From assembly GCA_038238915.1 (NCBI GenBank), contig JBBSFH010000003.1, positions 105,294 to 169,293 of the forward strand: DNA of 64,000 nt, read 5' to 3'. Shown in pieces: positions 16,403-34,390 of the stretch. This DNA is from Sphingomonadales bacterium. GTDB lineage: Bacteria; Pseudomonadota; Alphaproteobacteria; Sphingomonadales; Sphingomonadaceae. Position 1 is the first letter of the stretch, and the number at the start of each line of letters is the position of its first letter. The notes beneath the pieces were generated by a model. That model made no database searches and was not told the DNA's origin. It saw only the letters and a list, made by a program, of their open reading frames with translations. The position numbers and the translations under genes were made by a program.

Positions 16403-17460
16403 CTTGGCACCGCGTAACTCTCCGAGACCGAACCCTTTTGGGTGCCGCGCACGATCTCGATGTGCGCCGCCGCCTCGTGGCGTGGCGCACGCGCGACGCG
16501 CATTGCGCTGCGGTGGACAATCGGCGCGGGCGCGCGGCGCGGGCCGTCGTGTAGATCGGCAAGATAGGTGGTGGGCACGGCGGCGCGGCTTTCATCGGTG
16601 AGCGCGCGCAGCGCCAGCGTCAGCGTACCGCTGGGCAGATTGGAGCCGAGCACAAGCTTGGCCGCCTGTTCCGCAGTGACCTCGAGCGTCGCGGTACGGA
16701 CCGGGGTCGGTTTCTCGTTCAAGGTGTTGGCGTTCTGCCCGATCGCCAGCACGCGCACGTTCTGCACCAGGAGATCGCTGATCGGCGTGGGCCTGGCGGC
16801 GTCCGTGCTGACGGTGCGCAGTGCCGTGCCGCCCGACTGTACGCCGGGCGGAACATAGGCGAGTGGGCGACGGCCGTTCGTGCTCGCGCCAGGCTGCGGT
16901 GCCGCGACGGCCGCTACGACCGAACTGGCCGCCGCCGCTGCCGCCGCGCTGTCCATCGCGCGCTGCGAGACGATGGTTTCGGTACGCGCCGCCTTCTCGG
17001 GCGGAGTGTAGGAGACGAAGATATCGACGCGGTCCCCGGGGGCGACGAGGCCCGCGACGCCGGTGGGTTCGGATACGTTGACCGAGATGGCGCGCATGGA
17101 TGGACCGATGACGCCCAGCATCGAGAGGCGGTTGCCCTTGGCGGAGATCGCAGCATCGGTGATGACCTCGTTCACGCCGATCGGTCGCAGCGCAACCCGA
17201 GCGCCGTTGGCGACTGCAAGCGGGATGCTGGCGAACGCATCTGCGGGGCGCGACGCGGCGGGAAGCTCGATCAGCTTGAGCGCATCGGCCGAAATCTTGT
17301 CGCCGAACTGGAGGGCGCGGGCGGCGGCGACGACGGGGAGTGTCGCGGAAGCAACGACCGGCGAAGTTCCCCGTGGGCGCAGGATGGTGCGCGCAAGGAC
17401 CACCCCGATCAGGCCGAGGATGAGCGCCGCGGCGAGCATGACGAGAGACGATCTACGCAT
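16399..17460 (-). CDS. cpaB: Flp pilus assembly protein CpaB/RcpC
   Basis: N-terminal TM anchor MRRSSLVMLAAALILGLIGVVLA. SAF-like region (...FGDKISADALKLIELP...) and RcpC-type C-terminal part (...VQNVRVLAIGQN...ATLEVTAEQAAKLVL). ATGA overlap with cpaC. Confidence 0.85.
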   Translation of the reverse strand: MRRSSLVMLAAALILGLIGVVLARTILRPRGTSPVVASATLPVVAAARALQFGDKISADALKLIELPAASRPADAFASIPLAVANGARVALRPIGVNEVITDAAISAKGNRLSMLGVIGPSMRAISVNVSEPTGVAGLVAPGDRVDIFVSYTPPEKAARTETIVSQRAMDSAAAAAAASSVVAAVAAPQPGASTNGRRPLAYVPPGVQSGGTALRTVSTDAARPTPISDLLVQNVRVLAIGQNANTLNEKPTPVRTATLEVTAEQAAKLVLGSNLPSGTLTLALRALTDESRAAVPTTYLADLHDGPRRAPAPIVHRSAMRVARAPRHEAAAHIEIVRGTQKGSVSESYAVPS

Positions 17461-26210: not shown

Positions 26211-26876
26211 ATGAACGCTGCCGCAGGCGGGGCCGACGGTTTTGCGGCAAACATGATGGCTGGCATCGTGATCGGCGATGGGTCGACGACGCCTCGTTCG
26301 CTCCAGCCACAGTCCTTTCGGCAGTTGCTGCAGACCGCCACCGGCGAGACTCATCAGCGATTGCACCATCATTCCGGCCTTTCAGCAGTGCAAGACGGCA
26401 CGATCAGCCGATCGGACTACCGAAGCCTGCTCGAACGCCTCCATGGATTCCATCGCGCTTTCGAACTCGCAGCAGGTCTCACCGCCGAGCGTAGTGTGTG
26501 GCTGGCGCTCGATATCGAGGCGCTGGGTGGCTTCGATCAACCGGGCGGCTCGCCGCCGCTATGTCCTGCCATGCCAGACTTCGATACGGCCGAAAGCGTC
26601 CTCGGCGCGCTCTATGTCGTCGAAGGCTCGGCGCTCGGCGGGCGTAGCCTGGCGCGTGGCCTCGATCGCCTGCTCGGGCCCGGGACGCCGCACGGTCGGC
26701 GCTTCTTCGAAGGGCGCGGTCAGGAAACAGGCGCGGCGTGGCGCGCGTTCCTTGTCCGTCTGGAGCACGCATCGAGAGAATCATCCGCGCGCGCTGCGGT
26801 CATCGAAAGCGCTGTCGAGACGTTTTCGGTGTTCGAGAAGTGGCTCAACGGTTGGAGTACAGCGGATGCCAGTTGA
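26211..26876 (+). CDS. bphO: Heme oxygenase (biliverdin-producing, BphO-type)
   Basis: 221 aa. Heme-oxygenase-like helical pattern (FRQLLQTATGETHQRLHHH..., DYRSLLERLHGFH, ALYVVEGSALGG). Lies directly upstream of the phytochrome gene and overlaps it by 11 nt. Confidence 0.75.
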   Translation: MNAAAGGADGFAANMMAGIVIGDGSTTPRSLQPQSFRQLLQTATGETHQRLHHHSGLSAVQDGTISRSDYRSLLERLHGFHRAFELAAGLTAERSVWLALDIEALGGFDQPGGSPPLCPAMPDFDTAESVLGALYVVEGSALGGRSLARGLDRLLGPGTPHGRRFFEGRGQETGAAWRAFLVRLEHASRESSARAAVIESAVETFSVFEKWLNGWSTADAS

Positions 26877-29535
26877 AATCGAGCCGATCACGGGCGTGAT
26901 CGACGCCACAAATTGCGACCGCGAACCCATCCACATCCCCGGTGCGATCCTGCCGCATGGTGCGATGCTGGTGCTGGACCCGGACAGTTTGGAAGTCCTG
27001 CAGGTCGCAGGCGATACGGCTGGTCTGCTCGGCGTACAGATTGCCGCGCTGCTCGGTTCGTCCGCCACCGACTTGTTCAATCCCGAGCAGGTCGCGCATC
27101 TTCGCGCCCTGAATGCGCGGTTCGACCTTGCCAAGCCCCGTCACCTGCTCGATCCGGTGCTGCGCATCGATCCGGCGCGCCCGCTCGACGCGAGCCTGCA
27201 TCGCAGCGGCGGTGCGCTCGTCCTGGAGTTCGAAGCCGCCGATATCGGCGACCGACTTGCCGCCGATCCGCTCGCCGGCGTGCAGGAAATGATCGCGGGT
27301 TTCGACGAGCCCGGTTCGCTTCAATCGCTCTGCCAGCTTGCGGCTGAACGTGTGCGCAATGTCGCGGGCTACGACCGGGTACTGGTCTATCGCTTCATGC
27401 AGGACGATTCGGGCTGGGTGATCGCGGAGGCGCGCGAGCCACATCTCGAACCGTTCCTCGATCTTCATTACCCGGCCGCCGACATTCCCAGCCAGGCTCG
27501 CGCGCTTTACGTGAAGAGTCCGCTCAGGCTGATCACGCAGGTCAACTACGATCCCGCACCGCTGACGCCGGTGAACAATCCGCGCACGGGCGAACCGCTC
27601 GACATGAGCCACGCCATCCTGCGCGACGTCTCGCCGATCCATCGCCAGTATCTTCGCAACATGGGCATCGATGCATCGATGTCGATCTCGATCATACAGG
27701 CGGGCAAGCTCTGGGGGCTGATCGCCTGTCATAACCACAGCCCGCGCCTGTTACCGCGCCACCTTCGCGCGGTGTGCGAGCTATTCGGTTCGATGTTCTC
27801 GCTGCAGCTCGAGGCGCGCGAGAAGGGAGAGCAATTCCACGAGCGGCTGGCCAGCCGGATGGTGCTGCAGAACCTGATGCTCAACCTCGCCAGCGCCGAA
27901 GACTATGCAGCCGGACTGACGCAGCAGTCGCCAAACCTGCTCGATTATATTCACGGTGGCGAAGCCGCGCTCGACGGCGTTCGCCGCGGCGGCGTGGCGG
28001 TCTGCGTCAAGGACCGATTGACCTTCCTCGGCATCACACCGAGCCAGGTCGAGATCGAAGCGCTGGTCGGGTGGCTGGATACGCACATGCAGCGAAGCGA
28101 GGGGGTTTACTCGACCGACCGCCTCGGGGAGGTGTGGGTAGATGCCAAGGCGTTCGCCGAGGTGGCTTCGGGTATTCTGGTGATCTCGGTCTCGCCCGAC
28201 CATTCCGACTACATTATCTGGTTCCGGCCCGAGATGGTTACGAACGTCCATTGGGCAGGCGCGCCGGAGAAGCGCGTCGAATCCGGTCCCGACGGCGATC
28301 GCCTGGCACCGCGCCGATCCTTCGAGCTGTGGAAGGAGACGGTGGTCGGTCGCAGCATTCAGTGGACTCCCGCGGACGCGGACGCAGCATTCGATCTGCG
28401 CGTCTCGCTGCTGCACGTCGTGCTGCGTCGCATCAAGTCGGCCGCGCGCGAGCGCAAGGCGGCTGCTGACCGCGACCAGCTGCTGATGGCCGAACTCGAC
28501 CATCGCGTGAAGAATACTCTGGCAAACATCCAGGCTCTGGTCGTTCAAACCAGCCGCAGCGCCGAATCGCTGACCGGCTTCGTCGAAGGGCTCGATGGTC
28601 GCATCCAGTCGATGGCGAAGGCGCATAGCCTGCTGTCCGAAAGCCGCTGGGAAGGCGTTTCGATCGGACGTCTGATGCGCGAGGAACTCGATCCTTACAG
28701 CAAGCGCAACAACGTCATCGCCCTGCGCGGGCCGGAGATCGTGCTGACGCCGAAATCGGCGCTATCTTTGTCGCTGGCTGTCCATGAGCTGGCGACCAAT
28801 GCGAGCAAATTCGGTGCGCTGCAGTCTACTAGCGGCAGTGTAACTATAGAATGGGATGTGTCCGGCGACGGCGGGATCAAATTATTGTGGCGTGAGGCCG
28901 ATGGGCCGGTAGTTCTGCCACCCACCCGGCGGGGCTTCGGCTCGACGCTTATCGAGCGTGCCCTTGCGATGGAAACCGGCGGCAGAGCGAAGATCGAATA
29001 TCTGCCAGAAGGCGTGGTTTGCGAAGTCTCGCTGCCGGCAACTTCTGTTTCACGGCTCGCCCCCGAGCTGCCGGTGTTGCCCGAGATCATCGCGACAGGC
29101 CGCATACTAACTGCCACGATCGCTGATCCCTATCGCGTCCTAGTTGTCGAAGATTCGTTTCTCGTCGTCATGCTCCTTGAGGATCTGTTCGAGAAAATCG
29201 GCTGGAAGATCGTCGGACCGGCAACGCGGGTGGACGAGGCGCTGGAGTTCGCACGCTCCGAGACCTTCGACGCGGCCTTCCTCGATCTCAATCTTAATGG
29301 CGAGATGTCGTGGCCGGTAGCCGCCATGCTGCAGGAGCGAAACATCCCGTTCGCGTTCAGCACGGGCTACAACGTCGAGACCTTGCTGCCCGCCAGCCTC
29401 AAGGGCACGCCCATTGTCAGCAAGCCCTTCCAACCCGCTGAGGTCGAGGCATGTTTGCGACAGATCATCATCGACCAGCGCAGTCGGGACCTGGGCGAAG
29501 CGAGCGATGGAAATCGGGCGCTCGATCTTCGCTGA
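26866..29535 (+). CDS. bphP: Bacteriophytochrome: PAS-GAF-PHY photosensory core + HWE/HisKA_2 histidine kinase + C-terminal receiver
   Basis: ATG at 26866 (GGAG 8 nt upstream) inside ORF 26278..29535. Biliverdin Cys context ATNCDREPIHIPGAILPHG. GAF blocks HYPAADIPSQARALY and SPIHRQYLRNMGIDASMSISI. Kinase blocks ELDHRVKNTLANIQALV, HELATNASKFGAL and GFGSTLIERAL. Receiver RVLVVEDSFLV...FLDLNLNGE...STGY...KPF. Confidence 0.9.
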   Translation: MPVEIEPITGVIDATNCDREPIHIPGAILPHGAMLVLDPDSLEVLQVAGDTAGLLGVQIAALLGSSATDLFNPEQVAHLRALNARFDLAKPRHLLDPVLRIDPARPLDASLHRSGGALVLEFEAADIGDRLAADPLAGVQEMIAGFDEPGSLQSLCQLAAERVRNVAGYDRVLVYRFMQDDSGWVIAEAREPHLEPFLDLHYPAADIPSQARALYVKSPLRLITQVNYDPAPLTPVNNPRTGEPLDMSHAILRDVSPIHRQYLRNMGIDASMSISIIQAGKLWGLIACHNHSPRLLPRHLRAVCELFGSMFSLQLEAREKGEQFHERLASRMVLQNLMLNLASAEDYAAGLTQQSPNLLDYIHGGEAALDGVRRGGVAVCVKDRLTFLGITPSQVEIEALVGWLDTHMQRSEGVYSTDRLGEVWVDAKAFAEVASGILVISVSPDHSDYIIWFRPEMVTNVHWAGAPEKRVESGPDGDRLAPRRSFELWKETVVGRSIQWTPADADAAFDLRVSLLHVVLRRIKSAARERKAAADRDQLLMAELDHRVKNTLANIQALVVQTSRSAESLTGFVEGLDGRIQSMAKAHSLLSESRWEGVSIGRLMREELDPYSKRNNVIALRGPEIVLTPKSALSLSLAVHELATNASKFGALQSTSGSVTIEWDVSGDGGIKLLWREADGPVVLPPTRRGFGSTLIERALAMETGGRAKIEYLPEGVVCEVSLPATSVSRLAPELPVLPEIIATGRILTATIADPYRVLVVEDSFLVVMLLEDLFEKIGWKIVGPATRVDEALEFARSETFDAAFLDLNLNGEMSWPVAAMLQERNIPFAFSTGYNVETLLPASLKGTPIVSKPFQPAEVEACLRQIIIDQRSRDLGEASDGNRALDLR

Positions 29536-29787: not shown

Positions 29788-30762
29788 TCAGGCACTTGCA
29801 GCCCGCCCGCCGGCGGTTCCCACGAACTCACGGTCGTGCCGTTCGAGGCAGGCGGCGATGGCCGCGGCGATCGGCTGCTCCGTGCGGTCGGCGACGAACA
29901 GATATTCGCCCCCCGGGTTGACCTCCAGAAATACATGCTCGCCTTCGGGCGTGACGCGGAAGTCGACCGCTCCATATTTCAGGCCAAGAAGGTCCATCAG
30001 CGCCTGCAACTTGTCCGCAACGTCGTCCGGCAGCCGATAGCGTGCCACCTCGGCGGTGCCGATGCCGCTGCGGTAATCGACCTGATGCTCGGCGTCCGAA
30101 CGGAAGCTCGCGGTGAACATCTCGCCATCGATCGCCGTGGTGCGCAGATCGAGATCGGCCGCGACGAACTTCTGGAAGATCACCGGCGCGAACCTTACGC
30201 TGTCGATGCGTCCAAGATCCGCCGCCTCCACCCGCGCCGTCTCGCGTGGTGCTTCGGCGATGTTGCGGAATGCCTTGCGGATCACTTCGCCCGGCCCGTG
30301 CGTCCCGATGAAGGCGCGCGCTTCCTCGGGGATGTTGGTGATCAGCGTTTCGGGAATGCTCAGCCCCACCTGCCGCGCGAGCTGCAACTGTCGGATTTTA
30401 CGTTGCGCCACTTCGTCCGCCATCGGCGGGTTCATCCAGAAACAGTCGATCGAATACCACGTCCCCATCAGCGCTTCGGTCGATTCGGACCAGGCGAACA
30501 GTCGCGCCACCTCGTCGGTGAGTGCCGGATCGAGCGTGATCGGCTTGATCCGCCGGTGCCACACCGCACCAACCTCCATCAGGTCGAGATCAGAGCCATC
30601 GGGCAGTCTGAACCCCAGCCGCATGTTGTCCGCGTCCGCGCCCATGCGCAGGCCGAGCTTGCTCGGGAACCAGCCGTTATCGACGATCGTGTAGGGGCGG
30701 GACAGGTGCTGCGTCACCCGACGCACATGCTCGTTGTCGAGGAAAGATATGATCAGGATCAT
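29788..30762 (-). CDS. ATP-grasp ligase resembling MvdC/MvdD-type graspetide (RiPP) macrocyclases
   Basis: ATG at 30762, 5 nt after GGAG, inside ORF 29788..30798. Blocks MILIISFLDNEHVRRV, AVWHRRIKP, QRKIRQLQLARQVGLSIPETLITNIPEEARAFI and KYGAVDFRVTPEGEHVFLEVNPGGEYLF match my recollection of the microviridin ATP-grasp blocks (VLIVTHSHDNES, AVWYRR, QLQLQVARQLGLLIPGTL, NYGAIDMIVTPDERYIFLEINPVGEF). No HMM was run. Confidence 0.75.
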   Translation of the reverse strand: MILIISFLDNEHVRRVTQHLSRPYTIVDNGWFPSKLGLRMGADADNMRLGFRLPDGSDLDLMEVGAVWHRRIKPITLDPALTDEVARLFAWSESTEALMGTWYSIDCFWMNPPMADEVAQRKIRQLQLARQVGLSIPETLITNIPEEARAFIGTHGPGEVIRKAFRNIAEAPRETARVEAADLGRIDSVRFAPVIFQKFVAADLDLRTTAIDGEMFTASFRSDAEHQVDYRSGIGTAEVARYRLPDDVADKLQALMDLLGLKYGAVDFRVTPEGEHVFLEVNPGGEYLFVADRTEQPIAAAIAACLERHDREFVGTAGGRAASA

Positions 30763-30824
30763 GCGCGCTCCATGCGTAAACGCCCGGCAGTGAACCACCG
30801 GGCTATCGAGCTGTTTTGGGTTGA

Positions 30825-32021
30825 CTAGTTCTGCCCGGCTGTGAGTTGCTGATAGGCCGCCGCGAGTTGCTGCGACATCGCGTGGCCCGCGTGATCGAGC
30901 AGGCCCGCCGAGGCGAGCTGGCCGAGCGCCGACAGGATATGCCGATAGGCTTCGGTGAGCTGCGCGCGCGCCGCATCGTCCGCGCGGCCGCCACCCGCGC
31001 CGCCCGCGCCATGCGCACCCTGCGCGCCGCCGAGCACGAACGGCTGTCCCCCGCCGCCGCCGCCGCCGAACACCGGCCCAGGGCCGCCGTGGGGAAAGCC
31101 GTGGTTCTCGAACACGTCTTTGGGAATATCCTTCGGCGGGTCCTTGTGGAAGTCCTTCGGCGGGTCCTTGTGGAAGTCCTTCGGCGGGTCCTTGTGGAAG
31201 TCCTTCGGCGGGTCCTTGTGGAAGTCCTTCGGCGGGTCCTTGGGAGGGTCCTTCCCATTATCCTGTACAGGGTTCTTGGGAAGCTGGGCCTGATAGTGGG
31301 CGAGAATTCGCTTTCTAGAGAGCGCCGTGGCGAAGATCGCCACCTCATCGATCAGGCCATAGAATGTTCGATGGATCGTGCTGCCGACAGGAATCATGCC
31401 CATCCGGTCGCCAATCGCCAGAGCGACTTCCGGGTCGTCTGGCGGCGTGTGTGGCCACTTGGTATCGATGTCGATCGCAGTCGTATTGATGGGAGTCGCG
31501 CTGTCCAGAATGCCGTTCAGGTAAATCCGGATCGCCAGCCCGTCGTAGGTGGCGACCACATGGGTCTCCGCACCCAATGCGACCACCCCGGTGCTGTCGG
31601 CAGCGACGACGTGAGGTGTTGAAGATCCGTCGTTCATGCGGAGTTCCACACGAACCTTCGCGTCCGGATTCACGCTCAGGCCGTATTGCGTCGTGCCCGC
31701 GTAACTCTCTTTTTCCAGGATGCGCTGCTGAAGGCCGGTCGGGCCGTCCCATCGAACCTTGGCTTCCATCGTTATTCGGGGCGGATTGTTGGTCGCACTG
31801 TTGGGAACGACAATTCGTCCGGTCGTGCCGTCGAACAGCGCCGCCGTGTCTCCGCCGTGGAAGCCGGGGTGCCCCAGCGTGATTCCACCGGTCGAGTAGG
31901 TTCCATCGTTGCCGTGCCCGGACGCATCGGCTGCTGGCGCGCTTACGGTAGCCTCCCCCAGGCGCCAGTAGCCGATTGGTCCGTCCGCCAACACTTCAGC
32001 CGCATAGGTTGCGAGTGCCAT
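30825..32021 (-). CDS. LamG/ConA-like lectin-fold protein with C-terminal KDPPKDFH repeats, Gly-rich block and conserved helical tail
   Basis: ATG at 32021, 7 nt after GAGGGG. The LamG pattern includes LFDGTTGRIVVPNS, HVVATYDGLAIRIYLNG and FYGLIDEVAIFATALSRKRILAHY. The C-terminal module follows: ...GKDPPKDPPKDFHKDPPKDFHKDPPKDFHKDPPKDFHKDPPKDIPKDVFENHGFPHGGPGPVFGGGGGGGQPFVLGG...RADDAARAQLTEAYRHILSALGQLASAGLLDHAGHAMSQQLAAAYQQLTAGQN. No signal peptide. Confidence 0.8.
   Translation of the reverse strand: MALATYAAEVLADGPIGYWRLGEATVSAPAADASGHGNDGTYSTGGITLGHPGFHGGDTAALFDGTTGRIVVPNSATNNPPRITMEAKVRWDGPTGLQQRILEKESYAGTTQYGLSVNPDAKVRVELRMNDGSSTPHVVAADSTGVVALGAETHVVATYDGLAIRIYLNGILDSATPINTTAIDIDTKWPHTPPDDPEVALAIGDRMGMIPVGSTIHRTFYGLIDEVAIFATALSRKRILAHYQAQLPKNPVQDNGKDPPKDPPKDFHKDPPKDFHKDPPKDFHKDPPKDFHKDPPKDIPKDVFENHGFPHGGPGPVFGGGGGGGQPFVLGGAQGAHGAGGAGGGRADDAARAQLTEAYRHILSALGQLASAGLLDHAGHAMSQQLAAAYQQLTAGQN
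31129..31250 (-). repeat. Coding tandem repeat: four perfect 24-bp units plus one degenerate unit (encodes KDPPKDFH)
   Basis: The plus-strand unit tccttcggcgggtccttgtggaag is repeated head-to-tail at 31129, 31153, 31177 and 31201. A fifth unit at 31225 diverges in its last third. Confidence 0.9.
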
Positions 32022-32129
32022 AGCCAATCCCCTCGATAGTCCCGCGAGTAACTGCCCGCCTCGGCCGAGCTACGATGAGCGGTGAAGACCGCCTTCGCCG
32101 CTCCACACATGCCGAGGCGGGTCTGCGAC

Positions 32130-33875
32130 CTAGTTTTGCGCGCTTGTGAGCTGCTGGTAAGCCGCGCTCAATTGCTGGTACATCGCCTGACCCTGCGGAT
32201 CGAGCAGCCCCGCCTGGGCAAGCTGGCCCAGCGCGCCCAGCAGTTGCTGGTAGGCCTGTGTGAGCAGCGCGCGCGCGGCATCGTCGCGTCCGCCGCCGCC
32301 GGCTGCCGGGCCGTGTGCTCCGCCGCCGAGCACGAACGGCGTGCCGCCCCCGCCCTGATTGCCGAACACCGGACCCTGCCCGCCGAACTGCGGCCCGGGG
32401 TTGCCGCCGCCTCCCGGGAACCCCGGGTTCTCAACAAGCTGCTTGGGATTTTCGAACCCCGGCGGCTTTTGCGGATCGAAAACCGCTTCCTTGGCATGTT
32501 CCTTGATGAAGTCCTTCAAGGCTTCCTTCGGAAAGTCCTTGTGGAAGTCCTTGGGATTATCCTTGATAATGTCCTTCGGGTTATCCTTGTGACCATCCTT
32601 CGGCTGGTCCTTGTGGAAGTCCTTGGGATTGTCCTTGATCACATCCTTGGGATTGTCCTTGTGACCATCCTTGTGGCCATCCTTGTGACCATCTTTCGGC
32701 TGGTCCTTGTGCAAGTCTTTTGGATCGTCCTTGATGAAATCCTTCGGGTTGTCCTTGATCGCTTCTTTAGGGCTATCCTTGGGATGATCCTTGACGAAGT
32801 CTTTGACCGGTTCCTTGATCAGATCCTTCGGCGAGTGCTTCACCACGGGCCCGCACGACACGCTCGATCCGATTGAACTGCGTGGCCCGTCAAGCGCGGC
32901 CTGGATCCGCGTTACCTGGCCGGTGCTGAACATTACCATCGCGGCGTCGTCGACATAGTCCATGTAATTCATGAACATGTCGCCGTTGGGGCCGTTCGAG
33001 CAACTGATGGTCGGGAACGGCGGATGGCCGAAGTTCGGCCCACCCTGGTTGGGCGTGTCGGCAACGGCATCGGTGCCGCCGCATCCGCCGCCGTCATCGC
33101 CCCAGATATGGAGGAGGTTCAGCCAATGGCCAACCTCGTGCGTTGCCGTCCGCCCAAGGTTGAACGGCGCGGCGGCGGTGCCCGTCGTGCCGAAGCCCGT
33201 ATGCAGGATCACCACGCCATCGGTCGCCGCCGCACCGCCGGGGAACTGCGCATAGCCCAGTAGCGGGCTGGTAAGCTGACAGACCCACAGATTCAGATAC
33301 TGGTCCCTCGGCCACGCGTCCGCGCCGCCCGTCGCCGCCGATTTGACCGTGTCGTCATGGCCGAAGCTGGCCACCGCCGTCTGCGTCCGGGTGACGCCGT
33401 TGGTCGCTGCGCCGTTCGGATCGTGCGTCGCCAATTCGAAGACGATCCGCGCATCGGCGGCGAGCGGCGCGAAAGGCGCGGGTACCGTCGAAACGTCGGG
33501 ATTGGCCTTGCGGTAATCGCGGTTTAGAACCGCGATCTGGCTGTCGATCTGCGCCTGGCTGATGTTCTGGGTGGCGGTGTTGTACACCACATGCACCACC
33601 ACCGGGATCTTGGTGCAGCCCGTGCGCTGCGGGGACATCAGTGATTCGGCTCGGAACGCGCCATCCTCGATGCGCGCGCGCGCCGCCGCATAACGCGGAT
33701 CGGTGTTCAAAAGCCGCCGATGCACCTCCATCGTGCCGCATGAGCGCTTGGTTGGTGACGGTGGAAGCGCGTCCCCGCCATCGGGTCTGGCCCCGCCGCC
33801 GCCGCCGCCCGCTCCTCCATAAGCCGGGCCCCCGCCTGGGGCGTCGGGCTTGTTATCCGTCGGTTCGCTCATCAT
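32130..33875 (-). CDS. M43 (pappalysin/ulilysin-type) zinc metalloprotease with C-terminal KDxPKDxx repeats, Gly-rich block and conserved helical tail
   Basis: ATG at 33875 or 33872 after AGGAGGAAG, inside ORF 32130..34031. Zinc site [31 protein letters not shown]. Met-turn region [23 protein letters not shown]. About 14 K-D-x-P-K-D-x-x units follow ([82 protein letters not shown]...). Then the Gly-rich block and the tail [52 protein letters not shown]. No signal peptide. Confidence 0.85.
32484..32840 (-). repeat. Coding tandem repeat region: imperfect 24-bp (and 12-bp) units encoding KDxPKDxx / KDGH
   Basis: Plus-strand periodic motif 'tccttg..atc..tccttggg..t' runs through 32.48-32.84 kb. 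This corresponds to aa 398-516 of track ORF 32130..34031. Confidence 0.8.
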
Positions 33876-33925
33876 TCTTCCTCCTTCGTCACAAGGTTTG
33901 GAACGCGAAACGCAACCTGCCTGCC

Positions 33926-34231
33926 TTACTCCGCCGACAGCACCAATTTGTCCGGGGTCGATTGTGCGACGTGATATTTGCCCGACCAGCCCGGCGCGTC
34001 GATCGTCAGACGATCCCCCGCAATCGACCACGCCCCCGGCGTGCTCGTGGGCCGGTCATCGGGTCCAGGCGCGTTTGCATGCGCCACGCCCGCCTGCGCG
34101 ATCTTGATTCCCCGGCGTCCGCGCGCGGGGGGGATCGGCGAACCGGCGGGCTTGAGCACGATCTGCCCCTGGCCGCCCTCCTCGCGCACTTCCACCCAGT
34201 CTCCGATCAACGTCGCTGGATCGAGTGCCAT
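33926..34231 (-). CDS. Small hypothetical protein (101 aa), first gene of the KD-repeat/ATP-grasp operon
   Basis: ATG at 34231 preceded by [38 protein letters not shown]...[34 protein letters not shown] looks like a small beta-rich (lipocalin/META-like?) domain. Family not recognised. Confidence 0.5.
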
Positions 34232-34324
34232 CTCGCCTCTCCCACGCGCCCTTCAGGCACCTCAAGAATTACGTGAATGTAATCCGAAATCGCGAACGAC
34301 GCAAGCCCGCTCACAAATAATAAG

Positions 34325-34390
34325 GGGGGAGGGGGTGGTGTCGGGCAAAGGGGCCTTTGCGCCCAGGCCGAGTTAACCTAACAGCGTCCC
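34325..34390 (+). repeat. Intergenic repeat family, copy 1
   Basis: ...GGGGGTGGTGTCGGGCAAAGGGGCCTTTGCGCCCAGGCCGAGTTAACCTAACAGCGTCCCC. Lies in the divergent region between the small ORF (34231) and the permease start (34525). Confidence 0.55.

What the first reader, a model, noticed from the sequence alone, without database searches (positions are those of the whole stretch)
29788..34231. Candidate novel system 1: two unrelated enzymes share a K/D-repeat C-terminal module and are followed by an MvdD-type ATP-grasp ligase (a protein-scale graspetide?)
Seen in the sequence: four minus-strand genes are packed head to tail. They are a small ORF (34231->33926), an M43/ulilysin-type Zn protease (33875->32130), a LamG lectin-fold protein (32021->30825) and an ATP-grasp ligase (30762->29788). 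Neither large protein has a signal peptide. Both end in the same tripartite module. Part (i) is tandem 8-residue K-D-x-P-K-D-x-x units, about 6 in the LamG protein and about 14 in the protease, including KDGH half-units. Part (ii) is a Gly-rich block with conserved ENxGFP...PFVLGG. Part (iii) is a ~50-aa helical tail. Established knowledge: MvdC/MvdD-class ATP-grasp enzymes form side-chain Lys-Asp/Glu lactams and Ser/Thr-Asp/Glu lactones on short RiPP precursors, which often carry repeated cores. Inference: here the repeated Lys/Asp units on full-size enzymes are the likely substrate. That would give chains of isopeptide macrocycles forming a stapled, protease-resistant stalk. The conserved tail could act as a C-terminal recognition ('follower') element. 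I know of no described case of graspetide-type cores appended to folded enzymes. The locus sits at the centre of the window.
Basis: partly seen in the sequence, partly recalled or inferred. Interest (0 to 1): 0.9.

Follow-up and report, generated by a model that had tools for sequence, protein, structure and literature searches.

The report
Enzymes carrying built-in graspetide repeat tails
Two unrelated full-size proteins here, a ulilysin-type protease and a LamG lectin-fold protein, end in the same Lys/Asp repeat array plus a conserved tail and sit beside a peptide-cyclising ATP-grasp enzyme; the same arrangement recurs on many enzyme types across bacteria, so whole proteins, not just short peptides, are probably its substrates.

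Summary
Four minus-strand genes encode a small protein, a pro-ulilysin-like M43 protease, a LamG protein and an MvdD/MdnB-type ATP-grasp.

Both large proteins end in the same module:
- a strictly in-phase tetrapeptide repeat K-[D/E]-x-[P/I/H/V], 29 and 12 units;
- a Gly-rich stretch with an invariant PF(V)L motif;
- a confident helical hairpin.

- All 17 ATP-grasp relatives at 40% identity or more that have upstream sequence carry a tail-bearing protein immediately upstream.
- Tail-associated ligases form an exclusive clade whose subclades follow repeat type.
- Starting from the tail motif alone, all 44 metagenome loci with at least 500 nt downstream have the ligase next.
- N-terminal domains vary: M43, tyrosinase, trypsin-like, subtilase, BNR, astacin, and LamG here.
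- In the larger family the repeat is [T/K/S]-L-K-F-x-D-D, with donors and acceptors as in graspetide cores.

Published surveys found no precursor for protease-linked ATP-grasps, or called the small neighbour the precursor. The small protein here is a lipocalin-like barrel.

Verdict: a natural follower-guided, protein-scale graspetide system, and a new variant of a known kind. Cross-links and biological role are unproven.

The parts
33926..34231 (-). Small accessory protein (101 aa). It is a lipocalin-like 8-stranded beta-barrel and the third conserved component of the cassette.
   Evidence: Homologues are found in all 10 M43-type loci, upstream of the protease or downstream of the ligase. The 12-sequence alignment A4 has invariant positions W12, V13, E14, E17, PPARGRR (34-40), P55, G56, D59, W68. 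AF2 pLDDT is 81 with 8 strands. Top Foldseek hits are lipocalin-like proteins (4qrl, TM 0.56, E 0.027). Pfam Lipocalin_4 is sub-threshold (E 0.0017-0.1).
32130..33875 (-). Pro-ulilysin-like M43 metalloprotease carrying the C-terminal module (581 aa). No signal peptide.
   Evidence: PF05572. Pro-ulilysin 8cd8 at 1.4e-113 over aa 38-337 and mirolysin at 3.9e-86. [11 protein letters not shown] and MFMNYMDY are visible in the sequence. Hydropathy.
32487..32828 (-). Protease repeat array: 29 in-phase K-[D/E]-x-x tetrapeptides (aa 350-463). Putative multi-core region.
32328..32486 (-). Protease linker with FDPQK/FENPK ([D/E]xxK) units, ENPGFP, the Gly-rich stretch and the PFVL motif (aa 464-516). 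PFVL is at 32328-32339.
   Evidence: PF is invariant in 17 of 17 tails. P, F and L are invariant in 28 tails.
32136..32288 (-). Protease C-terminal helical hairpin (aa 530-580).
   Evidence: AF2 on alignment A5: helices at tail residues 30-54 and 60-80, block mean pLDDT 85-96.
30825..32021 (-). LamG (Laminin_G_3) protein carrying the same module (398 aa). The LamG domain is aa 64-239 (31305-31832).
   Evidence: PF13385 3.4e-16. Module identity to the protease, 5e-40. The protein is a singleton in the 15-billion-protein collection.
31116..31253 (-). LamG repeat array: 12 in-phase K-D-x-x units (aa 257-302). At DNA level it is 5.2 copies of a 24-nt unit at 97% identity, which points to a recent expansion.
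30831..31115 (-). LamG Gly-rich block with ENHGFP, PFVL (31032-31043) and the helical hairpin (about aa 347-397).
   Evidence: Hairpin position is taken by alignment to the modelled protease tail.
29788..30762 (-). Graspetide-type ATP-grasp ligase (324 aa). The pre-ATP-grasp (leader-binding) domain is aa 1-113 (30424-30762). FLEVNPGGEY, containing the E-x-N residues I take to be the Mg/ATP site, is present.
   Evidence: It belongs to the exclusive tail-associated clade. The ATG at 30762 gives 324 aa, the same length as the ligase gene called in L086, which is 94% identical.
34317..34344 (-). Sigma-70-like promoter match upstream of the small gene (weak evidence). No minus-strand terminator-like site lies inside the cluster. 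Gene gaps are 50, 108 and 62 nt.

Best explanation
The cluster is a self-contained cassette: small barrel protein, then enzyme-with-module (two of them here), then ATP-grasp. In it, the ATP-grasp's substrates are the C-terminal modules of the full-size proteins themselves.

Proposed sequence of events:
1. The proteins are made in the cytoplasm without a signal peptide.
2. The ligase docks on the conserved element C-terminal to the repeats. That element is the invariant P-F-[V/I/A]-L motif, possibly with the helical hairpin, and it acts as a natural 'follower' in place of the usual N-terminal leader.
3. Using ATP, the ligase phosphorylates Asp/Glu side chains in the repeat array and closes them onto Lys side chains.
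4. Because the window's array has no Ser or Thr, the products would be macrolactams only. My preferred pairing is acid(i)-Lys(i+3), i.e. D-x-x-K, which gives a string of 17-membered rings. This is the mirror image of the MyxF (KxxE)n rings. K(i)-D(i+5) is not excluded.

Cross-linking would remove the charges and the free lysines, and would turn a floppy, cleavable polyampholyte into a rigid segment that proteases cannot cut. It could then act as a tether, or as a built-in inhibitor or latency element for the attached enzyme. The small lipocalin-like protein is most likely an accessory, either a cytoplasmic inhibitor or chaperone of the protease or a partner of the ligase, and not the precursor.

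Shown: the architecture, the co-occurrence, the co-phylogeny, and the donor/acceptor conservation.
Inferred: ligase docking on the follower, ring formation and topology, and the biological role.
For: 1. Enzyme type. The ligase matches MvdC/MvdD/SAV_5884 maturases and the solved MdnB, MdnC, CdnC and PsnB far better than RimK, and it has the pre-ATP-grasp domain.

2. Obligate adjacency, tested from both sides.
- Loci L001-L017 all have a tail-bearing protein directly upstream of the ligase; L019-L080 have none.
- Tail-first searches: 6 of 6 and 44 of 44 metagenome loci with at least 500 nt downstream.

3. Co-phylogeny. The 21 tail-associated ligases form an exact clade among 79, with subclades that follow repeat and N-domain type.

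4. The repeats look like graspetide cores.
- In the window's family K is 100% and D/E 100% conserved in perfect 4-residue phase, while the other two positions drift. The protease array is only 71% identical at DNA level.
- In the larger family the unit is [T 75%/K 14%/S 8%]-L-K-F-x-[D/E]-[D/E]. The position that swaps Thr, Lys and Ser is 97% nucleophile, which makes sense only for a donor residue.
- Astacin-type and S1-type relatives carry ETLKE, DTKKE, TIKRLDD and TTVLRD units.

5. No room for a separate precursor. Gene gaps are 50-108 nt, and only three gene families are conserved around the M43-type loci.

6. The PF motif.
- It is invariant in the tails.
- It resembles known leader recognition motifs: PFFARFL and the 'Phhx(1,2)h' pattern (Makarova 2022), RPFG, and 'EPFLLRFATP' in thuringinin-type leaders.

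7. Precedents.
- A leader moved to the C-terminus still directs ThfB (PMC13003496).
- MyxF makes tandem Lys-Glu lactams on (KxxE)n (PMC12848669).
- CorB lactamises five KxxxD repeats on a 22-kDa precursor (PMC13097080).

8. The module is portable. The window's LamG repeats, tail, intergenic region and ligase are collinear with the M43 repeats, tail, intergenic region and ligase of the closest relative L086 (81.9% identity). So LamG captured the ancestral tail by recombination in the repeats.
Against: - There is no chemical evidence of any cross-link.
- The ligase scores are below NCBIfam's curated cut-offs for every named maturase family, so its exact activity could differ.
- The K-D-x-x spacing has no characterised precedent. 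It has no acid at i+3 or i+4 after Lys, so the pairing is a guess.
- Modifying up to 29-35 units lying 50-160 residues from a single follower needs more processivity than has been shown. Four KxxE units and trivalent cores are the characterised maxima.
- A charged Pro-rich repeat could simply be a spacer, and the hairpin could be a docking or oligomerisation element.
- RODEO-based work assigns small neighbouring proteins as precursors in related groups.
- The LamG fusion is known from this one genome only.
- I could not read Iyer et al. 2009, which first catalogued these ligases.
Confidence: 0.68

Rival explanations
1. The small upstream protein is the real precursor or substrate of the ATP-grasp, as RODEO predicts for related groups. 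The protease matures it, and the C-terminal modules are unrelated appendages.
For: The small protein is as strictly conserved as the other two genes. In Carter 2026 the predicted precursors of the protease-linked groups 30 and 32 are ~100-aa proteins in the same kind of position. It carries conserved acidic and basic motifs: HEED, RGR, PDDR.
Against: It folds as an 8-strand lipocalin-like barrel (pLDDT 81), not a leader plus core. It has no repeated donor/acceptor units and no PFxL-type motif. Its position flips between upstream of the protease and downstream of the ligase, whereas the tail-to-ligase order is fixed. The group-30 'precursor' is itself a YscW-like folded protein. This rival does not explain why unrelated enzymes share the tail, or why 44 of 44 tails are followed by the ligase.
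Confidence: 0.1
2. The tail only recruits the ligase to the enzyme, as a docking or scaffold element. The ligase modifies other peptides, for example fragments that the protease cuts from cellular proteins (Makarova's proposal). The K/D repeats are a flexible spacer.
For: Makarova 2022 proposed that the linked peptidases supply peptides for the ligase. Most N-terminal domains are proteases. The hairpin is a well-folded unit that could mediate protein-protein binding.
Against: A spacer would not keep Lys and Asp/Glu 100% conserved in exact phase without a single indel over 12-35 units. Nor would it swap Thr, Lys and Ser at one position. Non-protease carriers (tyrosinase, BNR, LamG) have the same module. 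Repeat type co-varies with ligase subclade.
Confidence: 0.12
3. The ligase adds residues rather than closing rings: RimK- or TTL-like addition of Glu or another amino acid to the tail's C-terminus or to side chains of the acidic repeats.
For: It is an ATP-grasp fold with a weak RimK match (3.7e-9; 8e-4). TTL-family ATP-grasps are known to glutamylate acidic tails (established knowledge).
Against: Similarity to ring-forming maturases is 30-50 orders of magnitude better. The extreme C-termini of the tails are not conserved: QN, QG, AG, SC, GS and others. The invariant pairing of a nucleophile with an acid in each unit fits intramolecular closure.
Confidence: 0.05

Closest known systems
Graspetides in general: microviridin (MdnB/MdnC, MvdC/MvdD), plesiocin (PsnB), thuringinin, chryseoviridin (CdnC)
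   Same: The ligase family is the same, with a pre-ATP-grasp domain. The substrate is ribosomal and encoded next to the ligase. The repeated cores hold Thr/Ser/Lys donors and Asp/Glu acceptors. There is a short hydrophobic P-F-h-h recognition-like motif.
   Different: The substrate is a 398- or 581-aa protein with a folded N-terminal enzyme or lectin domain, not a peptide. The recognition-like element lies C-terminal to the cores. There are up to 29-35 units. No leader peptidase/ABC exporter, GNAT or methyltransferase gene is conserved nearby.
Myxomiditide / MyxF (PMC12848669)
   Same: Tandem lactam rings form on a short Lys/acid repeat. KxxE is installed N to C, and up to four units have been shown. 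The large TLKFxDD family has the same K-x-x-D spacing.
   Different: MyxF works with an N-terminal PFFxRFx leader on a microviridin-type peptide and alongside three other ligases. The window's K-D-x-x unit has the acid first (D-x-x-K) or needs an i+5 closure.
Corallotide / CorB (graspetide group 15, PMC13097080)
   Same: It has an unusually large precursor (~22 kDa) with five repeats, each closed by a Lys-Asp isopeptide (KxxxD).
   Different: CorA has an N-terminal helical leader domain, no enzyme domain and only five repeats. It needs partner proteins and a hydroxylase, and it is restricted to Corallococcus.
Engineered leader-to-follower fuscimiditide precursors (ThfA/ThfB, PMC13003496)
   Same: A recognition sequence placed C-terminal to one to three cores still directs the graspetide synthetase. 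The key motif is the short RPFG.
   Different: That arrangement is artificial, and the authors present their products as not seen in nature. Here the follower arrangement is natural and universal in a whole ligase clade.
Protease-linked 'orphan' ATP-grasps: Makarova 2022 branches 7/8 and Carter 2026 groups 30/32
   Same: These are MvdD-type ligases tightly linked to peptidases of unrelated families plus a small beta-rich protein (YscW-like). Group 30 also shows LamG (PF13385) in 15% of clusters. My astacin-type loci (L013, L015, L016 Cellulomonas) look like the same kind.
   Different: Those studies report no precursor or take the small protein as precursor. None describes the C-terminal module. 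An M43-linked group is absent from Carter's co-occurrence tables. I could not place the window's ligase in their trees.
Ulilysin / pappalysin family M43B
   Same: The catalytic domain and pro-peptide match pro-ulilysin at 1.4e-113.
   Different: The crystallised ulilysin constructs are 262-361 residues, and the match to the window protein ends at aa 337, before the repeat array. So they do not contain the ~245-aa repeat, PFVL and hairpin extension.

Membership tests
Graspetide (RiPP) biosynthetic system | ATP-grasp ligase of the MvdC/MvdD/MdnB/MdnC type with a pre-ATP-grasp (leader-binding) domain | tested here: met
   PF21068 2.3e-9, above its cut-off. TIGR04187 2.5e-61, MvdC 1.1e-53, MvdD 9.8e-51, all below the curated equivalog cut-offs. 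MdnB 5ig8 1.8e-40.
Graspetide (RiPP) biosynthetic system | Adjacent ribosomal substrate with conserved donor (Thr/Ser/Lys) and acceptor (Asp/Glu) residues in core motifs | tested here: met
   (K-[D/E]-x-x) x29 and x12, with K and the acid invariant. Relatives carry [T/K/S]-L-K-F-x-D-D. Adjacency is 17/17 and 44/44.
Graspetide (RiPP) biosynthetic system | N-terminal leader peptide preceding the core | tested here: not met
   The N-terminus is a folded M43 or LamG domain. The only leader-like motif (PFVL) and the hairpin lie C-terminal to the repeats.
Graspetide (RiPP) biosynthetic system | Substrate is a short precursor peptide. The largest characterised is ~22 kDa. | tested here: not met
   398 and 581 aa, against corallotide's ~22 kDa.
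Graspetide (RiPP) biosynthetic system | Side-chain omega-ester or omega-amide macrocycles are actually installed | not testable with these tools
   This needs intact-mass and MS/MS analysis after co-expression.
Microviridin (graspetide group 1) | Core TxKxPSDx(D/E)(D/E), PFFARFL leader, two ligases | tested here: not met
   No such core or leader is present, and there is a single ligase. A true microviridin locus in the outgroup (L022) shows the contrast.
RimK / D-Ala-D-Ala-ligase-type ATP-grasp | Best similarity to RimK/Ddl models | tested here: not met
   RimK 3.7e-9 against 2.5e-61 for maturases. 5zct 8e-4 against 1.8e-40.
M43B metzincin (ulilysin) | HExxHxxxxxH zinc site, Met-turn, and a cysteine-containing pro-peptide | tested here: met
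   [19 protein letters not shown] and KRSCGT are in the sequence. Pro-ulilysin 1.4e-113.
Makarova branch 7 / Carter group 30 (astacin + YscW + ATP-grasp) | Ligase falls in that published clade; neighbours are an astacin and a YscW-like protein | tested here: inconclusive
   The window has M43 and a lipocalin-like protein instead. Astacin-type loci (L013, L015, L016) are in the same tail-associated clade as the window. The published trees and sequences could not be searched for the window's ligase.

The most novel reading that the evidence does not exclude
A widespread, so far undescribed class of 'protein-scale graspetides'. Full-size enzymes (ulilysin-type, astacin, trypsin-like and subtilisin-like proteases, tyrosinases, BNR and LamG proteins) are made without signal peptides. 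Their C-terminal repeat arrays are stitched into chains of side-chain macrocycles by a dedicated ATP-grasp, guided by a natural C-terminal follower (the PFxL motif, possibly with the helical hairpin). This would supply the 'missing precursors' of the protease-linked ATP-grasp branches. It would also give the attached enzymes a cross-linked, protease-proof tether or a built-in inhibitor/latency element.
Probability: 0.6. Interest if true: 0.9.

Novelty: new variant of a known kind. Interest (0 to 1): 0.85.

Why it matters
Graspetide chemistry is currently understood as acting on short leader-first peptides. If confirmed, this system would show four things.

1. The same enzymes naturally modify whole folded proteins.
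2. Nature uses a C-terminal follower. That arrangement was only recently engineered, and its products were presented as not seen in nature.
3. Arrays of a dozen to about 35 minimal 4-residue Lys/Asp units can serve as cores.
4. The protease-linked 'orphan' ATP-grasp clades noted in 2022 and 2026 do have their substrates in plain sight. Genome-mining tools that cap precursor length, or pick the nearest small ORF, would miss them or mis-assign them.

Practically, a portable tag (repeat, PFxL, hairpin) that directs enzymatic stapling of any fused protein would be a useful protein-engineering tool.

It also raises a testable biological question: why do secreted-type hydrolases and oxidases that lack signal peptides carry a cross-linkable tail and a companion barrel protein?

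Tried and rejected
- Tail-only searches through the word-indexed 5.8-billion-protein database were nearly blind: 1 hit and 3 hits. The exhaustive HMMER search and the DNA-pattern scan were needed.
I replaced it with A6.
- Iyer et al. 2009 could not be opened. I therefore cannot exclude that they noted the peptidase tails. Makarova 2022, which builds on that work, says no precursor was found.
- Searching Makarova's supplements for Pfam names or ligase peptides gave nothing usable, because the files were truncated.
- PADLOC gave no defence-system match for any of the four proteins.
- The source organism was not identified. Exact-match look-ups give only an unnamed NCBI contig of 181,798 bp and Logan runs.
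- A weak tail-HMM hit at window 16859-17008 is a 50-codon alternative-frame fragment (RRPFVLAPG...) and I dismissed it.
- Three or four TPR proteins in the exhaustive search are false positives without a PFxL motif.
- A model of the ligase-tail complex could not be attempted, because there is no multimer option and chimeric inputs are not accepted.
- I considered and rejected the repeats as TonB-like or PEVK-like spacers. Exact phase, invariant K and acid, and the Thr/Lys/Ser interchange in relatives argue for chemistry, not spacing.

Full report
**1. What is in the window**

Four minus-strand ORFs lie head to tail with gaps of 50, 108 and 62 nt:
- a 101-aa protein (33926-34231);
- a 581-aa protease (32130-33875);
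- a 398-aa LamG protein (30825-32021);
- a 324-aa ATP-grasp (29788-30762).

They are flanked by unrelated genes. On one side is a convergent ORF whose translation looks like a phytochrome-type sensor kinase (not tested). On the other are an amino-acid permease and a patatin gene. A sigma-70-like match lies upstream of the first gene, and no minus-strand terminator-like site lies inside the cluster.

Pfam assigns Peptidase_M43, Laminin_G_3 and the MvdD pre-ATP-grasp domain. The protease matches pro-ulilysin, pro-peptide included, at 1.4e-113. None of the proteins has an N-terminal hydrophobic segment.

**2. The shared module**

The two large proteins share only their C-termini: BLASTP 5e-40, 54% identity over 179 aa. 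The module has three parts.

(i) A repeat array.
- The DNA period is 24 nt. The protein unit is a tetrapeptide, K-[D/E]-x-[P/I/H/V].
- There are 29 units in the protease and 12 in LamG, all in phase.
- In the window's two proteins and ten homologues, 296 of 297 spacings within the arrays are exactly 4. K is 100% conserved. The next residue is D (71%) or E (29%). Ser+Thr is 0-3%.
- The protease array has drifted to 71% DNA identity yet keeps K and the acid. The LamG array is 97% identical at DNA level, which indicates a recent expansion.

(ii) A linker.
- It has further [D/E]-x-x-K units (FDPQK, FENPK), then ENxGFP, then a Gly-rich stretch.
- It ends in PFVLGG.

(iii) A helical hairpin, modelled with 10-residue block mean pLDDT of 85-96. 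Everything before it in the modelled tail is disordered.

Only these two proteins in the window carry the tail.

**3. The ligase**

- NCBIfam: GRASP_SAV_5884 2.5e-61, MvdC 1.1e-53, MvdD 9.8e-51, RimK 3.7e-9. All are below the curated family cut-offs, so it is a distinct subfamily.
- PDB sequences: MdnB 1.8e-40, MdnC 7.6e-31, AMdnB, CdnC and PsnB, against RimK 8e-4.

**4. Relatives found from the ligase side**

A genome scan returned 80 loci.
- The ten closest ligases (58-69% identity) come from Sphingomonas, Sandaracinobacter, Ectothiorhodospiraceae, Deinococcaceae/Trueperaceae, Terriglobia, Rhodothermaceae and others. All have an M43 protease with 11-35 overlapping KDxxKD matches plus the PFVL tail directly upstream.
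- All ten also encode a homologue of the small protein, either upstream of the protease or downstream of the ligase.
- No other gene family is conserved around them. The core is therefore a three-gene cassette scattered across phyla.
- Ligases at 40-44% identity (L011-L017) also have a module-bearing protein directly upstream, with other N-terminal domains and other repeats. These are trypsin-like (DRVTTVLRDRPT, PVTIKRLDDG), astacin (PETLKE, DTKKE) and non-protease (DKFPPQ, FDTLKE).
- A broad tail HMM hits L001-L017 and nothing in L019-L080. L018 lacks upstream sequence.
- The outgroup holds classical loci, for example a PFFARFL...KYPSD microviridin precursor in L022.
- In a neighbour-joining tree of 79 ligases, the 21 tail-associated ones form an exact clade. 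Its subclades follow repeat and N-domain type.

**5. Relatives found from the tail side**

An exhaustive profile search of 1.84 billion cluster representatives gave 66 hits. In the hits I read, the tail lies at the extreme C-terminus. Their N-terminal domains include subtilase, trypsin-like, tyrosinase, astacin, BNR and M43.

All six hits with usable flanks have the ligase next.

A metagenome scan with nothing but the tail peptide TPHHSMAW gave 61 loci.
- All 44 loci with at least 500 nt downstream have a same-strand ligase. It starts about 17-700 nt after the tail in 43 of them and overlaps the tail match in one. Of the 44, 42 pass the strict filter, one starts at +704 and one overlaps.
- Every locus with at least 200 nt downstream shows the ligase N-terminus.
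- The nine loci without a ligase have less than 175 nt of downstream sequence.

N-terminal domains of 45 of these proteins:

| Domain | Count |
|---|---|
| M43 | 18 |
| Tyrosinase | 9 |
| Trypsin_2 | 5 |
| S8 subtilase | 4 |
| BNR | 4 |
| Astacin | 3 |

Their repeat unit, measured over 437 units, is [T 75%/K 14%/S 8%]-L-K-F-x-[D 89%/E 11%]-[D 96%/E 4%]. Thr, Lys and Ser share little except being the graspetide donor residues, so a position that swaps among them is the strongest single sequence argument that these repeats are cores. The K-x-x-D spacing equals MyxF's KxxE.

**6. The follower**

- PF is invariant in 17 of 17 tails.
- P, F and L are invariant in 28 tails.
- PFxLxTPHHSMAW is invariant in 45 tails.

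Graspetide leaders use short P-F-hydrophobic motifs. Examples are PFFARFL and the 'Phhx(1,2)h' pattern (Makarova 2022), RPFG in graspimiditides and EPFLLRFATP in thuringinin-type leaders. Moving the ThfA leader to the C-terminus still allows modification. I therefore read PFVL, possibly with the hairpin, as a natural follower. This is inference.

**7. The small protein**

It is a confident 8-strand barrel (pLDDT 81). Its best fold matches are lipocalin-like proteins, and Pfam Lipocalin_4 is sub-threshold. It has no repeats and no PFxL motif.

In Carter 2026, the predicted precursors of the protease-linked groups 30 and 32 are ~100-aa proteins. The group-30 example weakly matches YscW. I regard these small proteins as accessories: an inhibitor or chaperone, by analogy with cytoplasmic lipocalin-like staphostatins (my own knowledge), or a ligase partner as in rosaritide. 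I do not regard them as substrates.

**8. Evolution of the LamG fusion**

The closest relative, L086, has a small protein 85% identical and a ligase 94% identical. Its gene order is small, M43, ligase, with no LamG gene and about 14 repeat units.

Its late repeats, tail, intergenic region and ligase align collinearly with the window's LamG repeats, tail, intergenic region and ligase at 81.9% identity. They match the window's protease tail at only 74%. So LamG captured the ancestral tail by recombination inside the repeats, and the protease carries a more diverged copy. The module is portable. LamG (PF13385) also co-occurs in 15% of Carter's group 30 clusters.

**9. Literature status**

- Makarova 2022: branches 7 and 8 are linked to peptidases of several unrelated families, and no precursor was detected. 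The authors suggest the peptidases supply peptides. Branch 7 includes Cellulomonas, Lysobacter and Streptomyces.
- Carter 2026: the proteases are called neighbours involved in maturation or resistance. No M43 group appears in their tables.
- The largest characterised precursor is corallotide at ~22 kDa.
- I found no paper describing natural enzyme-fused cores or a natural follower.
- Iyer 2009 could not be read.

**10. Verdict**

Ring topology, completeness of modification and the biological role (stalk, latency element, or released cyclic peptides) remain open.

It does not meet the leader-first, short-peptide definition of a graspetide precursor. I therefore file it as a new variant of the graspetide kind rather than a member of any described group.

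Noticed in passing
window 30825-32129; L086:1290-3881: The LamG gene is absent from the closest relative (L086). The window's LamG tail, not the protease tail, is the ortholog of L086's M43 tail (81.9% against 74% DNA identity). This indicates an N-terminal domain swap by recombination inside the repeat array.
   Followed up: yes
window 31116-31253 and 32487-32828; L086:1290-2837: Repeat number changes fast: 29 units in the window's protease against about 14 in L086, whose ligase is 94% identical. The LamG array is 97% identical at DNA level, which points to a recent slippage expansion.
   Followed up: partly
L081, L082 (Logan contigs of about 2.5 kb): Short-read assemblies of the same locus start with a 110-residue partial gene just upstream of the ligase, probably inside or just after the K/D repeats. 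If so, these genes are likely fragmented and under-counted in metagenomes. Many database hits are C-terminal fragments.
   Followed up: partly
Carter et al. 2026 SI (Fig. S7, Table S4), group 30: The RODEO-predicted 'precursor' of the astacin-linked group 30 is a 112-aa protein that weakly matches YscW (E 0.0016). The astacins in my related loci carry repeat, PFxL and hairpin tails. The published precursor assignment for that group may therefore be wrong.
   Followed up: partly
P0050 (797 aa, from the exhaustive search): This protein seems to carry two modules in tandem: an internal helical hairpin, then a second repeat array (KFxDD units), a second PFVLATPHHSMAW motif and a second hairpin.
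   Followed up: no
L006:7934-9916, L007:7861-9555: Trueperaceae homologues have a second repeat type, EPPKG[V/F]F heptads, between the K-D-x-x array and the PFVL motif. It again has E-x-x-K spacing.
   Followed up: no
L014:8035-9918, L017:8068-9768: These two alphaproteobacterial members have a non-protease N-terminal region, two repeat types (DKFPPQ and FDTLKEIGGGG), and a short tail (PFVLATPHQAPQGALAQQYLAAQMARGMLGL) that lacks the second helix.
   Followed up: no
L083:3884-5324: A trypsin-like protease gene with repeats and tail is broken by frameshifts and stops in this assembly, so the tail was called as a separate 107-aa protein (P0002). Such artefacts could be mistaken for stand-alone precursors.
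   Followed up: partly
window 26278-29535 (+): A long ORF converging on the cassette has the look of a bacteriophytochrome-type sensor kinase (CDREPIHIPG..., kinase and receiver-like C-terminus). This is judged from the translation only.
   Followed up: no
window 16859-17008 (+): A 50-codon open stretch (…RRPFVLAPG…) gives a weak tail-HMM hit (E 7.6e-4). It is most likely a chance alternative-frame match in GC-rich DNA.
   Followed up: partly
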